64,000 nt of DNA from Escherichia coli (lineage in GTDB: Bacteria > Pseudomonadota > Gammaproteobacteria > Enterobacterales > Enterobacteriaceae), in assembly GCF_017348835.2 (NCBI RefSeq), contig NZ_CP071375.1; one strand, given 5' to 3'. The translations under genes and the position numbers were made by a program. Below the pieces are notes generated by a model. That model did no database searches. It had not been told where the DNA came from and saw nothing but the letters and a program-made list of their open reading frames with translations. Positions 3,131-45,281 of the stretch are shown piece by piece (position 1 is the stretch's first letter; each line of letters opens with the position of its first letter).

Positions 3131-3797
<667 letters not shown>

Positions 3798-5017: not shown

Positions 5018-5200
5018 TCGCATCAGGCATTTATCGCCTGATGCGACGCTGGCGCGTCTTATCATGTCTGGGATTTGATGCCTTTATCACAACAGGGACG
5101 AGGCCCGTAGATCGGATAAGGCGTTCACGCCGCATCCGGCGGTTGCGCTCCGATGCCTGATGCGACGCTGGCGCGTCTTATCAGGCCTACAAAGGCATAC
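5018..5200. repeat. REP/BIME cluster (several palindromic units, gcctgatgcgacgctggcgcgtcttatcaggcctac type)
   Basis: Imperfect palindromes with REP consensus repeated in alternating orientation between convergent ygfZ and yqfA. Confidence 0.75.
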
Positions 5201-5202
5201 CA

Positions 5203-5865
<663 letters not shown>

Positions 5866-12480: not shown

Positions 12481-12926
12481 CTTGTCCTCATTGAATAAGC
12501 GGGGCTGACAACTTTTTCATGGTGAAATTATCACCACAAAACCCAGCATCGGAGCCACTCTCGGTCCCCAACGCAATCGTTCTCTTTTGCCTGAACTTAC
12601 CACCGAAACAGACTGTTAACCATAAGGTAAAATTGATCATCACATTAGCTTATGGTTAAAAATGCAAAAATCGCGACAGAATAAAAAACCAAAAAATACA
12701 CCAGTTTCTATACAAAGATGATGTGATGAGAAAGTCAATTTGAATAAGACAATATTAAGAGCTAAAAAAATGTCAAAAAACACTAAATCAAAAAATCATG
12801 ACATTAGAAAATATAATGCGAAAACGGAGGTGAAATTAGTTTATTTCAAATGAGGAAAATCTCCCGGCGAAAAAACCGGGAGATGAAAGTGTGATGGGTA
12901 TCAAATAAACAGCAGAAGAGAAATTT
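12481..12926 (-). promoter_or_regulatory. gcvTHP control region (long AT-rich upstream region; known target of GcvA, Lrp, PurR, CRP)
   Basis: About 445 bp non-coding, AT-rich; regulator assignment from established knowledge, individual sites not mapped. Confidence 0.5.
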
Positions 12927-17794: not shown

Positions 17795-17978
17795 ATTTCT
17801 CTGAGATGTTCGCAAGCGGGCCAGTCCCCTGAGCCGATATTTCATACCACAAGAATGTGGCGCTCCGCGGTTGGTGAGCATGCTCGGTCCGTCCGAGAAG
17901 CCTTAAAACTGCGACGACACATTCACCTTGAACCAAGGGTTCAAGGGTTACAGCCTGCGGCGGCATCTCGGAGATTCC
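17795..17978 (+). ncRNA. ssrS: 6S RNA
   Basis: Sequence atttctctgagatgttcgcaagcgggccagtcccctgagccgatatttcatacc...ggagattccc matches remembered 6S RNA over its full length; sits between zapA and ygfA. Confidence 0.9.
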
Positions 17979-17998
17979 CTTCTTATCTGGCACCAGCC

Positions 17999-18601
17999 AT
18001 GACGCAACTACCAGAACTCCCACTGACATTATCCCGACAAGAAATCCGCAAAATGATTCGGCAACGTCGTCGTGCGTTAACGCCGGAACAACAGCTGGAA
18101 ATGGGTCAACAAGCCGCTACCCGGATGATGACTTATCCCCCGGTGGTGATGGCACATACGGTCGCTGTATTCCTCTCTTTTGATGGAGAACTCGACACCC
18201 AGCCGCTTATAGAACAACTCTGGCGCGCCGGTAAGCGCGTATATCTTCCAGTTTTGCATCCCTTTAGTGCCGGTAATTTGCTGTTCCTGAATTACCATCC
18301 GCAAAGCGAACTGGTGATGAACAGGTTGAAGATCCATGAGCCAAAACTGGATGTGCGTGACGTGCTACCCCTTTCCCGATTAGACGTGTTGATCACACCG
18401 CTGGTCGCCTTTGATGAGTACGGTCAGCGCCTGGGAATGGGCGGTGGTTTTTATGATCGGACCTTACAAAACTGGCAGCACTATAAAATGCAACCGGTGG
18501 GTTATGCGCATGATTGTCAGTTGGTGGAAAAACTCCCCGTTGAAGAGTGGGATATCCCACTGCCTGCGGTGGTTACACCGTCGAAAGTCTGGGAGTGGTG
18601 A
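17999..18601 (+). CDS. ygfA: 5-formyltetrahydrofolate cyclo-ligase
   Basis: ORF track 17855-18601 begins inside ssrS; realistic start is ATG 17999 (MTQLPELPL..., 200 aa) or ATG 18053 (MIRQRRR..., 182 aa). Confidence 0.85.
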   Translation: MTQLPELPLTLSRQEIRKMIRQRRRALTPEQQLEMGQQAATRMMTYPPVVMAHTVAVFLSFDGELDTQPLIEQLWRAGKRVYLPVLHPFSAGNLLFLNYHPQSELVMNRLKIHEPKLDVRDVLPLSRLDVLITPLVAFDEYGQRLGMGGGFYDRTLQNWQHYKMQPVGYAHDCQLVEKLPVEEWDIPLPAVVTPSKVWEW

Positions 18602-18649
18602 GGGCGACACACCTGCATCGCCCTGATTGACATCGTTGATTCTTTGACC

Positions 18650-18800
18650 TAATTTAGTGAGTAAGGGTAAGGGAGGATGACTCCTCCCCTGAGACTGACT
18701 GTTAATAAGCTGGGAAACTTATGAGTAACAGTACAATCAGTATGATGACAAATCGCATCATAACCCTTCTCCTTTAAGCCCTCGCTTCGGTGAGGGCTTT
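18650..18800 (+). ncRNA. sibC: SibC antitoxin sRNA (boundaries approximate)
   Basis: Antisense to ibsC, ends in hairpin gccctcgcttcggtgagggc at 18778-18797; position between ygfA and serA as remembered for sibC. Confidence 0.55.
18702..18761 (-). CDS. ibsC: type I toxin IbsC (19 aa hydrophobic peptide)
   Basis: Reverse strand atg atg cga ttt gtc atc ata ctg att gta ctg tta ctc ata agt ttc cca gct tat taa = MMRFVIILIVLLLISFPAY; below the ORF-track size cutoff. Confidence 0.8.
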   Translation of the reverse strand: MMRFVIILIVLLLISFPAY

Positions 18801-18937
18801 ACCGTTACAGCCCTGTGCTGTCCCGCCATCGTAAATCCCCATTAAATAAACACAACGCATTGATCTGACTTTGATTTATTTTCTGGAGCAGACTCGCAAA
18901 GTAGAATGCGCAACGCGGCAACGGTGTGGAGAAGGGA

Positions 18938-18969
18938 TAAAAAAACGGGCAAGTCAGTGACCTGCCCGT
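18938..18969 (-). terminator. serA rho-independent terminator
   Basis: Hairpin acgggca...tgcccgt followed on the minus strand by a 7-T run, about 25 nt past the serA stop. Confidence 0.6.
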
Positions 18970-18989
18970 TGATTGTCAGAGAAGGGGAA

Positions 18990-21192: not shown

Positions 21193-22089
21193 TCAGACCC
21201 CGTTGGCAAGCCGCGTGGTTAACTCATCCATAAAATATCGCGCAATGGCAGGCATCCCCTTTCGCCCCGCAAATAAAGCATACAACGGTCTGGGTATGCC
21301 GCTCCACGGTGCAAACAGGCGCACCAGTTCACCGTTCACAAGCCCCTGTTTACAGGCAAATTGAGGCAATAACGCCACGCCATTCCCACCAAGTACTGCC
21401 TGCAGCATGACGCGAAGGTTATTTGACTGCAAACGCGCCTCAGGCTGCAGCGTAATCTCCTGTTCGCCATTAATTAATTGCCACTGGCTCCCGCCATTGT
21501 TCGCCAGCCGAAGGATCCCGTCGACGTGGTTAAGATCTTCAATAGCTTTCACCTGCGGATGGCGGGCCAGCCACTGAGAACTGGCAACTAAAATATCAGC
21601 CTGGGTATGTAATTTTTTATAATGCAGCGTCGAGTCCGCAAGCGCGCCGGAAGCCGTAACCAGCGCAATATCAATGCCTTCAGCGACCATATCCACCGGG
21701 CGATTAATTGCCAGCAGTTGCACCTTCGCCAGGGGCCAACGGGCGATAAACTCACTGACAAACTCACCAAACCATGTTTCAGCCATAAATACCGGCGCGC
21801 TGACGCGCAGCATTCCCTGTGGGCTTTCCTGGGCGGCCATCACCACCGCTCTAGCCCGTTCCTCCTGCGCCATCAGCGCCCGACATTCGACAGCAAACTG
21901 TTCGCCTGCCGCCGTCAGGGCCAGACGCCGCGTAGTTCGCTGAATAAGCCGTACGCCAAGGCGCTCCTCCAGTGCAGCCATTCGTCGGCTTAATACCGAT
22001 TTCGACACGCCCGCACGCAGCGCCGCCTGACTGTAGCTGCCTTCATCGGCAATCAGGGCAAAGTAGTAATAATCATTCCAGTCGATCAT
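21193..22089 (-). CDS. LysR-family transcriptional regulator, intact (K-12 carries only a fragment annotated yqfE at this site, as far as I recall)
   Basis: 298 aa; N-terminal HTH ([35 protein letters not shown]) plus substrate-binding domain; divergent from the next gene. Confidence 0.8.
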
Positions 22090-22120
22090 GATTGTTCTAT
22101 TTTCACAACAATGAAGTTCA

Positions 22121-22136
22121 ATTATGTCTATTTAAT
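22121..22136. promoter_or_regulatory. candidate LTTR box attatgtctatttaat (ATTA-N8-TAAT dyad) in divergent promoter
   Basis: Dyad with T-N11-A architecture within the 100-bp gap between the LysR gene and the azoreductase-like gene. Confidence 0.3.
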
Positions 22137-22189
22137 CATCATGTCAACAACAGTTAAACTTCTCTCATCGCAGAAACGAGAGCAAGCCC

Positions 22190-22819
22190 ATGAAAATTCT
22201 CCATATCGACAGTAGCCCAATGCTTAAGCATTCAAGTTCGCGGAAATTAAGCCAGGCGCTGGTAGAAGCGCTTTGCCAACACTTTCCTCAAGCCACAATT
22301 ATTCATCGCGACGTTGGCCTGACGCCGCCGCCCCATTTGCGTGAAGAAACCTTTCTGGCGCTTTGCGGTAAAGAAGAGTGCAAGAACGCACAAATTCAGC
22401 AGGAGGTGAATGATATCCACGCCGCTATTGATGAACTGGCATCGTGCGATGTGCTCATTATTGGCGCGCCGATGATTAATCACAGCGTTTCATCTGGCCT
22501 CAAAACCTGGATAGATCAGGTGTGTCAGGCTGGTTTAACGTTTCGTTTTAGCTCTGCAGGCGCCGTTGGGTTACTGAAGGATAAACCGACGTTTATTGTC
22601 TCGACGCGCGGCGGTATCTATTGCGATGAAGCACATCTGGCGCTGGATCATCAGGAAAGTTATCTGCAAGCCACGCTGAAATTAATGGGCATTACCAATA
22701 CACATATTTTACGTGCAGAAGGTGTCGACAAAACCCAACCGGGACGCGAACTCGCCGAGCAAAATGCATTAGCGCAAATCCCTGATCTTATTACACAAGT
22801 ATTTAATCATTACGTTTAA
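22190..22819 (+). CDS. FMN-dependent NADH azoreductase / flavodoxin-like quinone reductase family protein
   Basis: 209 aa; same architecture as AzoR (MKILHIDSSP...DVLIIGAPMINHSVSSGLKTWIDQV...TFRFSSAGAVGLL...STRGGIY). Confidence 0.7.
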   Translation: MKILHIDSSPMLKHSSSRKLSQALVEALCQHFPQATIIHRDVGLTPPPHLREETFLALCGKEECKNAQIQQEVNDIHAAIDELASCDVLIIGAPMINHSVSSGLKTWIDQVCQAGLTFRFSSAGAVGLLKDKPTFIVSTRGGIYCDEAHLALDHQESYLQATLKLMGITNTHILRAEGVDKTQPGRELAEQNALAQIPDLITQVFNHYV

Positions 22820-22835
22820 TATAAAAGGAGTTATT

Positions 22836-23096
22836 ATGTCTATTAAGCAAAATTTATTTACCGCGTTATTTCTTTGCACTCTCACAGGACATGCATTTGC
22901 AGCAACCGAGATACACAAACCGGACAATAATCTTGAACAGTTATCAAAAGTGAGCATGTCTACACACAATAGCAACCCAGCGGGCGTTGAAAGCCAAATC
23001 AAAGAGAAAGCGGAAGAGTTACAAGCCAGCAATTACTACATCAGTTCTTTCTCCGGTAAAAATTATATCCACGCTACTGTGATTTTCTATAAATAA
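22836..23096 (+). CDS. small secreted DUF1471 (BhsA/McbA/YdgH-like) protein
   Basis: 86 aa, signal peptide ending HAFA, C-terminal ...IHATVIFYK typical of the family; GGAG Shine-Dalgarno-like sequence 8 nt upstream. Confidence 0.6.
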   Translation: MSIKQNLFTALFLCTLTGHAFAATEIHKPDNNLEQLSKVSMSTHNSNPAGVESQIKEKAEELQASNYYISSFSGKNYIHATVIFYK

Positions 23097-23158
23097 TCAC
23101 TCTATTTAATGGGAGCATGGAACTGTTCTATGCTCCGCTGCCAAAATGAAATAAAAAA

Positions 23159-24484
23159 ATGAAAAAAGCTAATCTTACAGGTACGTTGGTTTGCTTTGTC
23201 GCATGTATTATTTTTTTGTCATCCGGCGATATTTTTCGTGAAAAGCCAATCGCGCTAATATGGTTCATTCGACAAAACACACTCTTTTTTACGGGAACCC
23301 TTGCGTGGTGTCTGATGACGCTGACGATGTGCTTATCGTTGCGTTCATCATGGCTTAACAAGATGCTGGGCGGTCTGGATAAAGCATGGCGATTACATAA
23401 GTGGGCAGGAATATGCGCCATCGTTTTTTCTTTCGCCCACTGGCTGGATGAAAAATTACCCCAGTTATTTGTCGCCTTTGGCTGGCTTACTCACCCTGGT
23501 AAAATTGTTGATATTAACCTGACGCCAGTACAAGAAAATTGGCTTCATGTGGGACTGTTAGCGGGTGAATGTGCAATGTTTATTATGATAGCGATGGTTT
23601 GCGTGTCTCTTAGCAAAAGAGTTCCCTATCATTTATTTCATCTTGTTCACCGTTTGTTCCCTGTCTTTTATCTGGCAATTGCCTTTCATGTGTTTACTGC
23701 TTTGTTTAAATCATATTGGTGGGAAACTCCTGCTGCGTATTTATTAATTTTAATTACTATTCCGGGCGTCTTTGTGGCTTTCATTTCGCTGCTGAAGTTA
23801 AACGGTAATAAAAGCAAGCATCAGGCCACCGTTAAAAGCATTGTTAACCATCCGGGACAAATTACCGAAGTCATACTGGAGATGGAACATCCCATCGACT
23901 ATTGTCCGGGGCAGTTTGCATTCTTAACTTTCGCACACAGTAAAGAATCTCACCCTTTTACTATCGCTTCATATGTAAAAGAGAAGAACACGTTGCGCTT
24001 TGCCATCAAAAATTTAGGGGATTATACCTCGACTCTGGCATCCTCGATACAAATCGGCCAGTCCGCCCTCGTTGAAGGGCCATGGGGAAAGTTTGATTTT
24101 ACTCTCCCTTGCTCCCGCCAGGTCTGGATAGCAGGAGGCATCGGCATTACCCCTTTTATCGCCCAGCTTGAGTATCTGAACCAGCATGGCGCGTCCCCTG
24201 TTTCTGTGGATCTCTGGTATTGCATCAGCCGAAGCGAGGATGCATGGTATGTTGATAAACTTACCTCACTTTGTGCCCAGGCCAGTGTCACACTGCATCT
24301 GCTTGATGCGCATAAAGGTGAGCGCCTACAGTCGCACTATCTTACTGATAAAATAGCAAATAAAGGTGACACCCATTTCTGGTTTTGCGGCCCACAGAGT
24401 TTTGCCAAAGCGCTCAGCAAAGGGTTATATGAAAATGGGATTGCCAGCCAAAACTTCCATTACGACCGCTTTTGTATGCGTTAA
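23159..24484 (+). CDS. NOX/ferric-reductase-type flavocytochrome (6-TM bis-heme domain fused to FAD/NAD(P)H-binding domain)
   Basis: 441 aa; His80/His94 and His164/His177 with 14/13 spacing in TM helices, HPFT FAD motif, [11 protein letters not shown](P)H motif, C-terminal FCGP. Confidence 0.7.
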
Positions 24485-36939: not shown

Positions 36940-37055
36940 TGTGCGCTTTGTCATGCCGGATGCGGCGTGAACGCCTTATCCGGCCTACAAAAACCTGCGA
37001 ATTCAATATATTGCAGGATACGTGTAGGCCTGATAAGCGTAGCGCATCAGGCAAT
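36940..37055. repeat. REP/BIME elements
   Basis: gccggatgcggcgtgaacgccttatccggcctac and gtaggcctgataagcgtagcgcatcaggc palindromic units. Confidence 0.65.
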
Positions 37056-44091: not shown

Positions 44092-44776
44092 CGGTCATCA
44101 TTAAGGTCAAATTTGCAGGCAGACTCTCTTCCAGCACCCGGCGAACATTCGGCCCGTCGGTACGGTCATAAAAAGCTTCTGCGTCTGCCAGCGATACCCC
44201 TCCCGCCAGCTTGCGCCCTACCAGTCGTTCCCGCAACGCAGTAGCTGGCGCGTTGATAAAGATCGAGAAATCACAAAATTGCGCAAGCTGGCACCACTTC
44301 TCGTCGTCCAGCAACAACCAGTTTCCTTCGACGATGACGAGTGGTGCGGTAACGTGCAACGCATCTTCAACAGGATCATGCTTTTGTCGATCGTACTGCG
44401 GCCACGTACAATCCCCTTCCACGACATGGCGCAGATTTTCCGCCAGTTTCGCAACGTCAAATGTCTCTGGTGCGCCTTTGAAGGGGCGCAATTGATGCGC
44501 ATCCAGCCAGCTATTGTAATGGTGAAAACCATCCATCGGGAGCGTCTGAATAGCGGGCAGTTCCGGGTCTTGTTGCGCGAGATATTCCCAGAATGTGGTT
44601 AGGGTAGATTTACCCGTCCCCGGCGGAGCGCAAAGAAAAACCACCGTACGCCGCTGCGGATTTACCGTCTGTAAGGCCGCCAGCATACGCAGCAACGGTT
44701 TATGCACGCGTTTAATCTCTTCATCATGGTACTGCGCTTGCACGTTCAGCCCATTCACCGTTAATTCAATTTTCAC
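44063..44776 (-). CDS. yggC: P-loop nucleoside/pantothenate-kinase-like protein YggC
   Basis: 237 aa from GTG, Walker A CAPPGTGKST. Confidence 0.85.
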   Translation of the reverse strand: MKIELTVNGLNVQAQYHDEEIKRVHKPLLRMLAALQTVNPQRRTVVFLCAPPGTGKSTLTTFWEYLAQQDPELPAIQTLPMDGFHHYNSWLDAHQLRPFKGAPETFDVAKLAENLRHVVEGDCTWPQYDRQKHDPVEDALHVTAPLVIVEGNWLLLDDEKWCQLAQFCDFSIFINAPATALRERLVGRKLAGGVSLADAEAFYDRTDGPNVRRVLEESLPANLTLMMTATGEYLLVD

Positions 44777-45281
44777 GGCGTTAATTCCTTTAAGGTGGTC
44801 GTTACTGCCAGCGTCAGCGCCGTTTTGACCATTCCGCTAAAACGCGCATCTGACCAGACGGCGAAATCGGCGAACTTCATCGCTTTCAACGCGTCATAGA
44901 GCGTCGCATTGCAGGTTATGCTATGACGTTGCTGATAAAATCCCAGGTCATGTCATCGGCAAATCCGGGCGTTTCATCCTGTTCGTTCAGGTAATGCCAG
45001 AACTGGGAAAAATGCGTGATATCGGCGTACAGCCATTTATCCATTTTCCCCAGCGCATAAATCAAACGCAGTGCAACATCAATGTCGTCAAGCGGGCCGC
45101 TTTGGGCGAGTAACGGCTTCACTGCATATTCGACGATCTCTTCATCGTTATCGACAAACAGCGACGGCAGAAACTGGCGTATCCCCTGGAGCAAAATAGA
45201 ATGCGCAGTTTTCATAAATGAAAATAAATTGTCCTGTGCATCCAGTTGCTCAAGCACATCATCTTCTGTCAGCGTCGCCAT
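44773..45281 (-). pseudogene. yggD: yggD (MtlR-like regulator) interrupted by an apparent 1-nt frameshift
   Basis: Frame A reads 121 aa then stops (...DFISNVIA*); a second frame continues ...SITCNATLYDALKAMKF...KELTP and ends in a TGA overlapping the yggC GTG; combined length would be 169 codons. Confidence 0.5.

What the first reader, a model, noticed from the sequence alone, without database searches (positions are those of the whole stretch)
18650..18800. Type I toxin-antitoxin pair ibsC/sibC, missed by the ORF track
A 19-codon hydrophobic ORF (MMRFVIILIVLLLISFPAY) on the minus strand is fully overlapped by a plus-strand region ending in a terminator-like hairpin, in the ygfA-serA spacer where the Ibs/Sib family member is expected. 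Small toxic peptides fall below ORF-finder cutoffs.
Basis: partly seen in the sequence, partly recalled or inferred. Interest (0 to 1): 0.4.

Follow-up and report, generated by a model that had tools for sequence, protein, structure and literature searches.

The report
Known E. coli ibsC/sibC toxin-antitoxin
This is the well-known E. coli ibsC/sibC locus, a 19-residue membrane-toxin gene fully overlapped by its antisense RNA antitoxin; it sits in its usual place between fau (ygfA) and serA and is ordinary apart from being a minority allele.

Summary
The observation and the interpretation both hold. The minus-strand ORF 18761..18702 translates to MMRFVIILIVLLLISFPAY. Rfam SIB_RNA (RF00113) matches 18627-18777 (+) at 137.2 bits (gathering score 56, E 3.5e-28), and Pfam Ibs_toxin matches the peptide end to end (44.9 bits, cut-off 27).

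The window is E. coli, 99.997% identical to strain PE164, with gene order zapA-ssrS-fau-[ibs/sib]-serA-rpiA as in K-12. An ungapped alignment with K-12 places SibC at 18663-18803 (+) and ibsC at 18702-18761 (-).

SibC differs from K-12 at 7 of 141 nt. All seven lie in loops or single-stranded segments, and two of them change the peptide (L4F, S17P). Pro17 is common among E. coli alleles. Phe4 and U113 mark a minority lineage: 52 of 5,426 complete genomes, including ATCC 8739. RefSeq already annotates this exact peptide (WP_071528466.1) as an Ibs family toxin.

SibC's target-recognition domains stay distinct from SibD and SibE of the same genome, so no altered cross-talk is predicted. Expression, repression and toxicity are inferred from K-12 experiments and were not tested here.

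Verdict: a real feature, already known, of low interest.

The parts
18627..18655 (+). sibC promoter: -35 TTGACA (18627-18632), 17-nt spacer, -10 TAATTT (18650-18655)
   Evidence: Read from the sequence. It is identical to K-12 over these columns, and the K-12 sibC 5' end maps 8 nt after the -10. The Rfam model begins at this TTGACA. The generic promoter scan did not call it because the -10 matches only 3 of 6. Transcription was not tested here.
18663..18803 (+). SibC antitoxin sRNA, 141 nt, orthologue of K-12 b4446
   Evidence: Coordinates transferred from K-12 sibC through an ungapped alignment; 134 of 141 nt identical. RF00113 scores 137.2 bits. MFE -55.6 kcal/mol, z -6.06 against shuffles. 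9 of 43 consensus pairs show compensatory change among the paralogs.
18708..18730 (+). TRD1 (SibC nt 46-68, P5 loop), which pairs within the ibsC ORF; carries UGG at nt 49-51 where K-12 has GCU
   Evidence: Domain limits from Han et al. 2010, PMC2943612, mapped through. Compared with the paralogs.
18761..18777 (+). TRD2 (SibC nt 99-115, 3' side of P1 plus single-stranded J1/7), complementary to the ibsC translation initiation region; U113 where K-12 has C
   Evidence: Domain limits from PMC2943612. nt 107-113 are unpaired in the MFE fold. The substitution is seen.
18776..18800 (+). SibC intrinsic terminator: stem GCCCTCGC/GTGAGGGC (18778-18797) with a UUCG loop, extended by two A-U pairs, then UUU
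   Evidence: The stem shows compensatory changes among the paralogs. It is identical to K-12.
18702..18761 (-). ibsC toxin CDS: 19 codons plus stop, MMRFVIILIVLLLISFPAY
   Evidence: Translation. Pfam PF13956 Ibs_toxin scores 44.9 bits against a cut-off of 27, profile positions 1-19 of 19 (the query was padded with the in-frame upstream Val codon to reach the tool's 20-aa minimum). PGAP CDS WP_071528466.1 lies at the same position in PE164.
18769..18774 (-). ibsC Shine-Dalgarno AAGGAG, 7 nt upstream of the ATG
   Evidence: Read from the minus-strand sequence. It lies inside the TRD2 target.
18663..18821 (-). ibsC mRNA, about 159 nt: 5' end at 18821 by homology with the K-12 mapped start, 3' end taken at SibC +1
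   Evidence: The Han et al. primers ERI-T7-ibsC and ibsC+159 and their primer-extension description, mapped through alignment A1. Fold -62.7 kcal/mol, z -5.56. The 3' end is approximate even in K-12.
18828..18855 (-). Inferred ibsC promoter: -35 TTGTGT (18855..18850), 16-nt spacer, -10 TACGAT (18833..18828)
   Evidence: My own reading of the minus strand, at the right distance from the K-12 mapped +1. It is identical in K-12. The paper's Figure 4B was not available to confirm which hexamers the authors marked.

Best explanation
This is the chromosomal type I toxin-antitoxin pair ibsC/sibC of E. coli.

The minus strand gives an mRNA of about 160 nt, starting near 18821, that encodes the 19-residue hydrophobic peptide IbsC. 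The plus strand gives the 141-nt SibC RNA (18663-18803) from its own promoter. SibC is perfectly complementary to the whole functional part of that mRNA.

SibC first contacts the mRNA through two independent domains. TRD1 is the P5 loop and pairs inside the ORF. TRD2 is the single-stranded J1/7 segment, presented by the P1 stem, and pairs over the Shine-Dalgarno sequence and start codon. Pairing then spreads. Translation is blocked and the mRNA is degraded, so the toxin is normally not made. If IbsC is made, it inserts into the inner membrane as a helix, depolarises the membrane and stops growth.

Shown here: the sequence, structure, synteny and family membership of both genes, and that every difference from K-12 SibC falls in unpaired segments.

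Inferred from K-12 experiments: transcription of both strands, repression, mRNA degradation and toxicity.
For: - RF00113 matches at 137.2 bits against a gathering score of 56.
- PF13956 matches at 44.9 bits against a cut-off of 27, over the full profile.
- The alignment with the K-12 fau-serA spacer is ungapped (14 differences in 388 bp), with annotated sibC and ibsC.
- Gene order matches K-12: zapA-ssrS-fau-ibs-serA-rpiA.
- The spacer is found in 5,425 of 5,426 complete E. coli genomes, nearly always with an Ibs CDS annotated.
- The SibC fold has z -6.06, and all 7 substitutions lie in the P2, P5 and P6 loops and J1/7.
- 9 of 43 base pairs show compensatory change among the six Sib sequences.
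- The promoter hexamers, Shine-Dalgarno sequence and terminator are identical to K-12.
- The mechanism comes from Han et al. 2010, PMC2943612 and the review PMC8309996.
- Sigma-S RNA polymerase binds at the sibC promoter, with the TSS at the position corresponding to 18663, per PMC4447067.
Against: Nothing contradicts it. Three limits apply.
- No expression or toxicity data exist for this allele.
- The peptide differs from the tested K-12 IbsC at L4F and S17P, and the review says residues 6-19 matter for toxicity. However, Pro17 is native to IbsB, IbsE and the common IbsC allele.
- NCBIfam has no HMM that hits the peptide.
Confidence: 0.95

Rival explanations
1. The locus is an orthologue but a functionally weakened allele. 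L4F and S17P would attenuate the toxin, or the G90A change (P6 loop GUCG to AUCG) and C113U change (next to the Shine-Dalgarno sequence) would alter expression or recognition, leaving a decaying remnant in this lineage.
For: The exact 141-nt allele is rare: 3 genomes are identical and 52 are within one mismatch, out of 5,426. Han et al. report that the GUCG of the P6 loop helps TRD2-only SibC derivatives work. C-terminal residues are needed for toxicity. The locus is dispensable: O157:H7 TR01 has lost it entirely.
Against: The ORF is intact, and the start codon, Shine-Dalgarno sequence, both promoters and the terminator are identical to K-12. Phe for Leu is a conservative hydrophobic change, and N-terminal residues other than V5 are reported dispensable. 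Pro17 is the residue in IbsB, IbsE and the widespread IbsC allele WP_071525914.1. Because the pair is cis-encoded, every change keeps perfect complementarity. Full-length SibC still has an intact TRD1, which is sufficient on its own.
Confidence: 0.05
2. The allele changes partner specificity: with UGG at nt 49-51, close to SibD's UGC, this SibC cross-represses ibsD or ibsE, or SibD represses this ibsC.
For: nt 49-51 is the triplet Han et al. swapped (GCU to UGC) to redirect TRD1 towards ibsD. The window's TRD1 has 2 mismatches to SibD where K-12 has 4.
Against: UGG is not special to this lineage; it occurs in many E. coli alleles. Against the same genome's SibD and SibE, the longest uninterrupted identity over TRD1 is 14 and 10 nt, and TRD2 has 8 mismatches. 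The engineered switches formed 22- and 25-bp helices.
Confidence: 0.04
3. A chance short ORF and a chance hairpin in an intergenic spacer, with no gene there.
For: Any 64-kb window holds hundreds of ORFs of 15-30 codons (293 here).
Against: Covariance-model E 3.5e-28. Pfam E 1e-11. The locus is conserved in 5,424-5,425 of 5,426 genomes. The ORF is the most hydrophobic of the 293.
Confidence: 0

Closest known systems
E. coli K-12 sibC (b4446) / ibsC (b4665), also called RygC, QUAD1c
   Same: Same chromosomal site (fau-serA spacer), same lengths (141-nt RNA, 19-codon ORF), same strand arrangement. Promoter hexamers, Shine-Dalgarno sequence, all stems and the terminator are identical. The RNA is 134/141 nt identical and the peptide 17/19.
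   Different: Seven substitutions in SibC, all in unpaired regions: nt 17-18 (P2 loop), 49-51 (TRD1), 90 (P6 loop) and 113 (TRD2, J1/7). The peptide carries L4F and S17P. The ibsC +1 base is A rather than G.
ibsC allele of E. coli ATCC 8739 and pig ETEC strains (RefSeq WP_071528466.1)
   Same: Identical peptide. SibC differs by one synonymous base (window 18732).
   Different: Essentially nothing; this is the same allele lineage, already in RefSeq as 'type I toxin-antitoxin system Ibs family toxin'.
Paralogues sibD/ibsD and sibE/ibsE (yqiK-hldE spacer), and sibA/ibsA and sibB/ibsB (yegL-mdtA spacer)
   Same: Same family (RF00113 at 141-148 bits in the same genome), same architecture, peptides 68-79% identical.
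   Different: 60-76% nucleotide identity. TRD1 and TRD2 differ (2-7 and 7-10 mismatches), which is the basis of cognate-only repression. They sit at different loci and in tandem pairs, whereas sibC is solitary.
Other type I toxin-antitoxin pairs (hok/sok, ldr/rdl, tisB/istR-1, shoB/ohsC)
   Same: A small hydrophobic membrane toxin whose mRNA is silenced by an antisense RNA.
   Different: In Ibs/Sib the antitoxin spans the entire ORF and translation initiation region of the toxin mRNA. There is no sequence relationship to the others.

Membership tests
Sib RNA (Rfam RF00113) | Covariance-model score at or above the curated gathering score | tested here: met
   137.2 bits against 56, E 3.5e-28, model positions 1-147 of 147, window 18627-18777 (+)
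Sib RNA (Rfam RF00113) | An RNA of about 140 nt with the conserved stems (P1 closing stem, P2, P5, P6) and a terminator hairpin (P7) | tested here: met
   The MFE fold reproduces these helices, -55.6 kcal/mol, z -6.06. The consensus fold of six Sib sequences has 43 pairs, 9 with compensatory change.
Sib RNA (Rfam RF00113) | Encoded antisense to an ibs ORF and overlapping both the ORF and its translation initiation region completely | tested here: met
   SibC at 18663-18803 (+) contains the ibsC CDS at 18702-18761 (-) and the Shine-Dalgarno sequence at 18769-18774
Sib RNA (Rfam RF00113) | Own promoter; the RNA is abundantly transcribed | not testable with these tools
   TTGACA-17-TAATTT is present and identical to K-12. 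Transcription itself needs RNA data. In K-12, sigma-S RNA polymerase binding and northern blots are reported.
SibC orthologue specifically (as opposed to SibA, B, D or E) | Position in the fau (ygfA)-serA spacer and highest identity to K-12 SibC | tested here: met
   Gene order zapA-ssrS-fau-ibs-serA-rpiA. 95% identity to SibC against 60-76% to the others.
SibC orthologue specifically (as opposed to SibA, B, D or E) | TRD1 and TRD2 sequences distinct from the non-cognate paralogues in the same genome | tested here: met
   Against PE164 SibD and SibE: TRD1 has 2 and 4 mismatches (longest runs 14 and 10 nt), TRD2 has 8 mismatches. SibA and SibB were taken from K-12 only.
Ibs toxin (Pfam PF13956) | Profile score at or above the gathering score over the full 19-position model | tested here: met
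   44.9 bits against 27, E 1e-11, profile 1-19 on residues 2-20 of a query padded with one upstream in-frame codon
Ibs toxin (Pfam PF13956) | An 18-19 residue, highly hydrophobic peptide with conserved MM(K/R)...SFxxY | tested here: met
   MMRFVIILIVLLLISFPAY: 15 of 19 residues hydrophobic, GRAVY 2.35, and all nine positions invariant among the paralogues are kept
Ibs toxin (NCBIfam) | A hit to an NCBIfam HMM | tested here: inconclusive
   No NCBIfam model matched, yet PGAP names the identical protein WP_071528466.1 an Ibs family toxin. The naming presumably does not rest on an HMM in that library.
Type I toxin-antitoxin system | Overproducing the peptide is toxic (membrane depolarisation, growth arrest) | not testable with these tools
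   Reported for K-12 IbsC. Not tested for the F4/P17 variant.
Type I toxin-antitoxin system | The RNA antitoxin represses toxin synthesis by base-pairing with the toxin mRNA | not testable with these tools
   Complementarity is perfect by construction. Repression and mRNA degradation are shown for K-12 SibC/ibsC.

The most novel reading that the evidence does not exclude
The minority allele (Phe4 in the toxin; A90 in the P6 loop and U113 next to the Shine-Dalgarno sequence in SibC/ibsC) is not neutral. It would tune toxin potency, ibsC translation efficiency or SibC-ibsC pairing kinetics in the ATCC 8739 / porcine ETEC lineage, as a natural example of allele-specific tuning of a type I toxin-antitoxin pair.
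Probability: 0.08. Interest if true: 0.2.

Novelty: already known. Interest (0 to 1): 0.07.

Why it matters
It matters little beyond completeness of annotation. ibsC/sibC has been characterised experimentally in K-12, and the exact peptide here is already in RefSeq.

There are two practical points. ORF lists with a length floor of 20 aa or more will always miss Ibs toxins. And PGAP records outside K-12 annotate the toxin CDS but not the SibC RNA, so a covariance-model scan is needed to annotate the pair.

The allele comparison gives a small piece of natural-variation support for the published SibC structure and function model: the variation sits only in loops and recognition domains, and the stems are untouched.

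Tried and rejected
- **NCBIfam:** the scan gave no hit.
- **Generic motif scans:** the promoter and terminator scans found neither the sibC promoter nor its terminator. The -10 TAATTT matches only 3 of 6 and the T run is short. Both elements were placed by homology with K-12 instead.
- **Primary papers:** Fozo et al. 2008 and Mok et al. 2010 are not held. Their findings are cited only as relayed by PMC2943612 and PMC8309996. The peptide-design paper PMC12199084 says nothing about positions 4 or 17.
- **A lineage-specific specificity switch:** I first suspected that the 3-nt change at SibC nt 49-51 (the triplet Han et al. used to switch specificity to ibsD) was specific to this lineage. I rejected that. 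UGG/Pro17 is shared by many E. coli alleles named IbsC, and the domain still mismatches SibD and SibE of the same genome.
- **Further copies in the window:** none found. There is one Rfam hit, one Ibs motif, and no secondary blastn-short match longer than 11 nt.
- **Not done:** the sibA/sibB locus of PE164 was not located, so K-12 copies were used as stand-ins.

Full report
**1. Checking the observation**

The mechanical ORF list, which has a floor of 20 aa, does not contain it.

A 19-codon ORF alone means nothing: the window holds 293 ATG-initiated ORFs of 15-30 codons. This one, however, is the most hydrophobic of them (GRAVY 2.35; the next is 1.83). It is also the only six-frame match to an Ibs-like MM(K/R)...SFxxY motif.

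On the plus strand, a scan of the whole window against Rfam at gathering thresholds gives a full-length SIB_RNA (RF00113) match at 18627-18777. It scores 137.2 bits against a gathering score of 56, E 3.5e-28. Directly after it lies the hairpin GCCCTCGC-UUCG-GUGAGGGC followed by UUU (18778-18800).

**2. Where the window comes from, and the exact anatomy**

The fau-serA spacer (18602-18989) is found in 5,425 of 5,426 complete E. coli genomes and is 100% identical to strain PE164. The whole 64-kb window is 99.997% identical to PE164 790523-854522, reverse complement, with two mismatches. The gene order is zapA, ssrS (6S RNA), fau (= ygfA), Ibs toxin, serA, rpiA, the same as in K-12 MG1655.

The alignment of the spacer with K-12 has no gaps and 14 differences in 388 columns, so K-12's annotated boundaries transfer directly:

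- sibC (b4446, 141 nt) maps to window 18663-18803 (+).
- ibsC (b4665) maps to window 18702-18761 (-).

The Rfam model starts at the -35 hexamer and stops before the terminator, which is why its coordinates are shifted relative to the RNA.

The sibC promoter reads TTGACA (18627-18632), a 17-nt spacer, then TAATTT (18650-18655), with the K-12 5' end 8 nt downstream. The generic promoter scan did not call it because the -10 matches only 3 of 6. The K-12 start site listed in a sigma-S ChIP-seq study corresponds to the same position (PMC4447067).

On the toxin side, the primers and primer-extension description of Han et al. 2010 (PMC2943612) place the K-12 ibsC +1 at the position equivalent to window 18821, and the 3' end of their 159-nt transcript at SibC +1 (18663). 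Upstream I read TTGTGT-16 nt-TACGAT (18855..18828, minus strand). A Shine-Dalgarno AAGGAG lies at 18774..18769, 7 nt before the ATG. These elements are identical in K-12. The promoter hexamers are my own inference, because the paper's figure was not available.

**3. Family tests**

The peptide matches Pfam Ibs_toxin (PF13956) over the whole 19-position profile at 44.9 bits against a cut-off of 27. The query had to be padded with the in-frame upstream Val codon to reach the tool's 20-aa minimum, and the match covers only the real 19 residues. NCBIfam has no model that hits it. [quoted passage not shown]

As RNA, SibC folds to -55.6 kcal/mol, z -6.06 against dinucleotide shuffles. The fold has the closing stem, three internal hairpins and a terminator described for K-12 SibC. 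A consensus fold of the window's SibC with the five K-12 Sib RNAs has 43 pairs, 9 of which keep pairing through changes on both sides. The ibsC mRNA also folds well (z -5.56), with the start codons inside a hairpin.

**4. How this allele differs from K-12**

SibC differs from K-12 at 7 of 141 nt:

| SibC nt | Change (K-12 to window) | Structural element |
|---|---|---|
| 17-18 | UG to GA | P2 loop |
| 49-51 | GCU to UGG | P5 loop, inside TRD1 |
| 90 | G to A | P6 loop (the GUCG motif) |
| 113 | C to U | single-stranded J1/7, inside TRD2, next to the Shine-Dalgarno complement |

No stem position is changed. On the other strand, two of these changes alter the peptide: L4F and S17P.

Because nt 49-51 is the triplet Han et al. 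mutated to redirect SibC towards ibsD, I tested whether this was a specificity change. It is not special to this lineage. UGG/Pro17 occurs in alleles from O145:H28, KTa008 and O2:K2:H1 that PGAP names IbsC (WP_071525914.1), and one further allele has CGG, also Pro. What marks this lineage is A at 18752 (Phe4) and T at 18775.

The exact 141-nt allele occurs in 3 of 5,426 genomes. Another 49, including ATCC 8739 and many pig ETEC strains, differ by one base. In ATCC 8739 that base is a synonymous change.

PE164 also carries SibD/IbsD and SibE/IbsE between yqiK and hldE. Against those two, the window's SibC has:

- 2 and 4 mismatches in TRD1, with longest uninterrupted identity of 14 and 10 nt;
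- 8 mismatches in TRD2.

The engineered switches formed 22- and 25-bp helices. Cognate-only recognition is therefore expected to be kept.

Phe for Leu at position 4 is a conservative change in a part of the peptide reported as dispensable apart from V5. Pro17 is native to IbsB and IbsE. I therefore expect a functional toxin, but this is an inference.

**5. Mechanism**

This follows K-12 work. SibC is made continuously. It contacts the ibsC mRNA through TRD1 (inside the ORF) and TRD2 (over the translation initiation region). Pairing then spreads, translation is blocked and the mRNA is degraded. If IbsC escapes repression, it inserts into the inner membrane as a helix, depolarises the membrane and stops growth.

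None of these steps was tested for this allele. What is shown here is that every sequence element needed for them is present and conserved.

**6. Rivals**

- *Weakened allele:* not excluded but unsupported (about 0.05).
- *Altered partner specificity:* argued against (about 0.04).
- *Chance:* excluded.

**7. Verdict**

The finding is real and correctly interpreted, and it is already known. The locus is the textbook ibsC/sibC pair, and this very peptide is in RefSeq. Interest is low.

Noticed in passing
window 17795-17978 (+): 6S RNA (ssrS), Rfam 139.8 bits. The mechanical 248-aa ORF at 17855-18601 runs through it. PGAP starts fau at 17999 (200 aa), whereas K-12 annotates a 182-aa protein, so the fau start codon is annotated inconsistently between records.
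   Followed up: partly
L011 (E. coli O157:H7 strain TR01, NZ_CP033605.1), fau-serA spacer at locus 1470-1676: This strain's spacer is 207 bp instead of 388 and lacks the whole sibC/ibsC pair. Rfam finds 6S there but no SIB_RNA. Only 2 of 5,426 complete genomes lack a sibC match, so loss of toxin and antitoxin together is tolerated but rare.
   Followed up: partly
window about 21193-24484: Four genes lie between rpiA and argP: a LysR-type regulator, an FMN-dependent NADH-azoreductase, a DUF1471 protein and a ferric-reductase-like membrane protein. K-12 has only the 231-bp yqfE pseudogene remnant there, which looks like a K-12 deletion rather than an insertion here.
   Followed up: partly
window 5110-5187 (+) and 36989-37031 (+): Rfam hits to naRNA4 (CssrE; REP-derived, 72.2 bits), between trhA and ygfZ, and to ES036 (CssrF; 42.5 bits, just above its gathering score of 37.6).
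   Followed up: no
window 3131-3785 (-): The sdhE-ygfX pair. From my own knowledge, this pair has been described as the CptB/CptA toxin-antitoxin-like module, which would make it a second small toxin-related locus in the window.
   Followed up: no
window about 44773-45281: fumE is annotated as a frameshifted pseudogene in the near-identical PE164 record.
   Followed up: no
window 12770-12853 (+): A 27-aa 'hypothetical protein' CDS (WP_122986162.1) is annotated by PGAP between ubiI and gcvT. I did not examine it.
   Followed up: no
L014 and L015 (PE164 670-750 kb, outside the window): The pitB...parE...hldE...rpoD segment runs in the opposite direction to what K-12 gene order would predict relative to the window's segment, and an IS3 element sits at 670 kb. 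This suggests a chromosomal inversion in PE164 relative to K-12.
   Followed up: no
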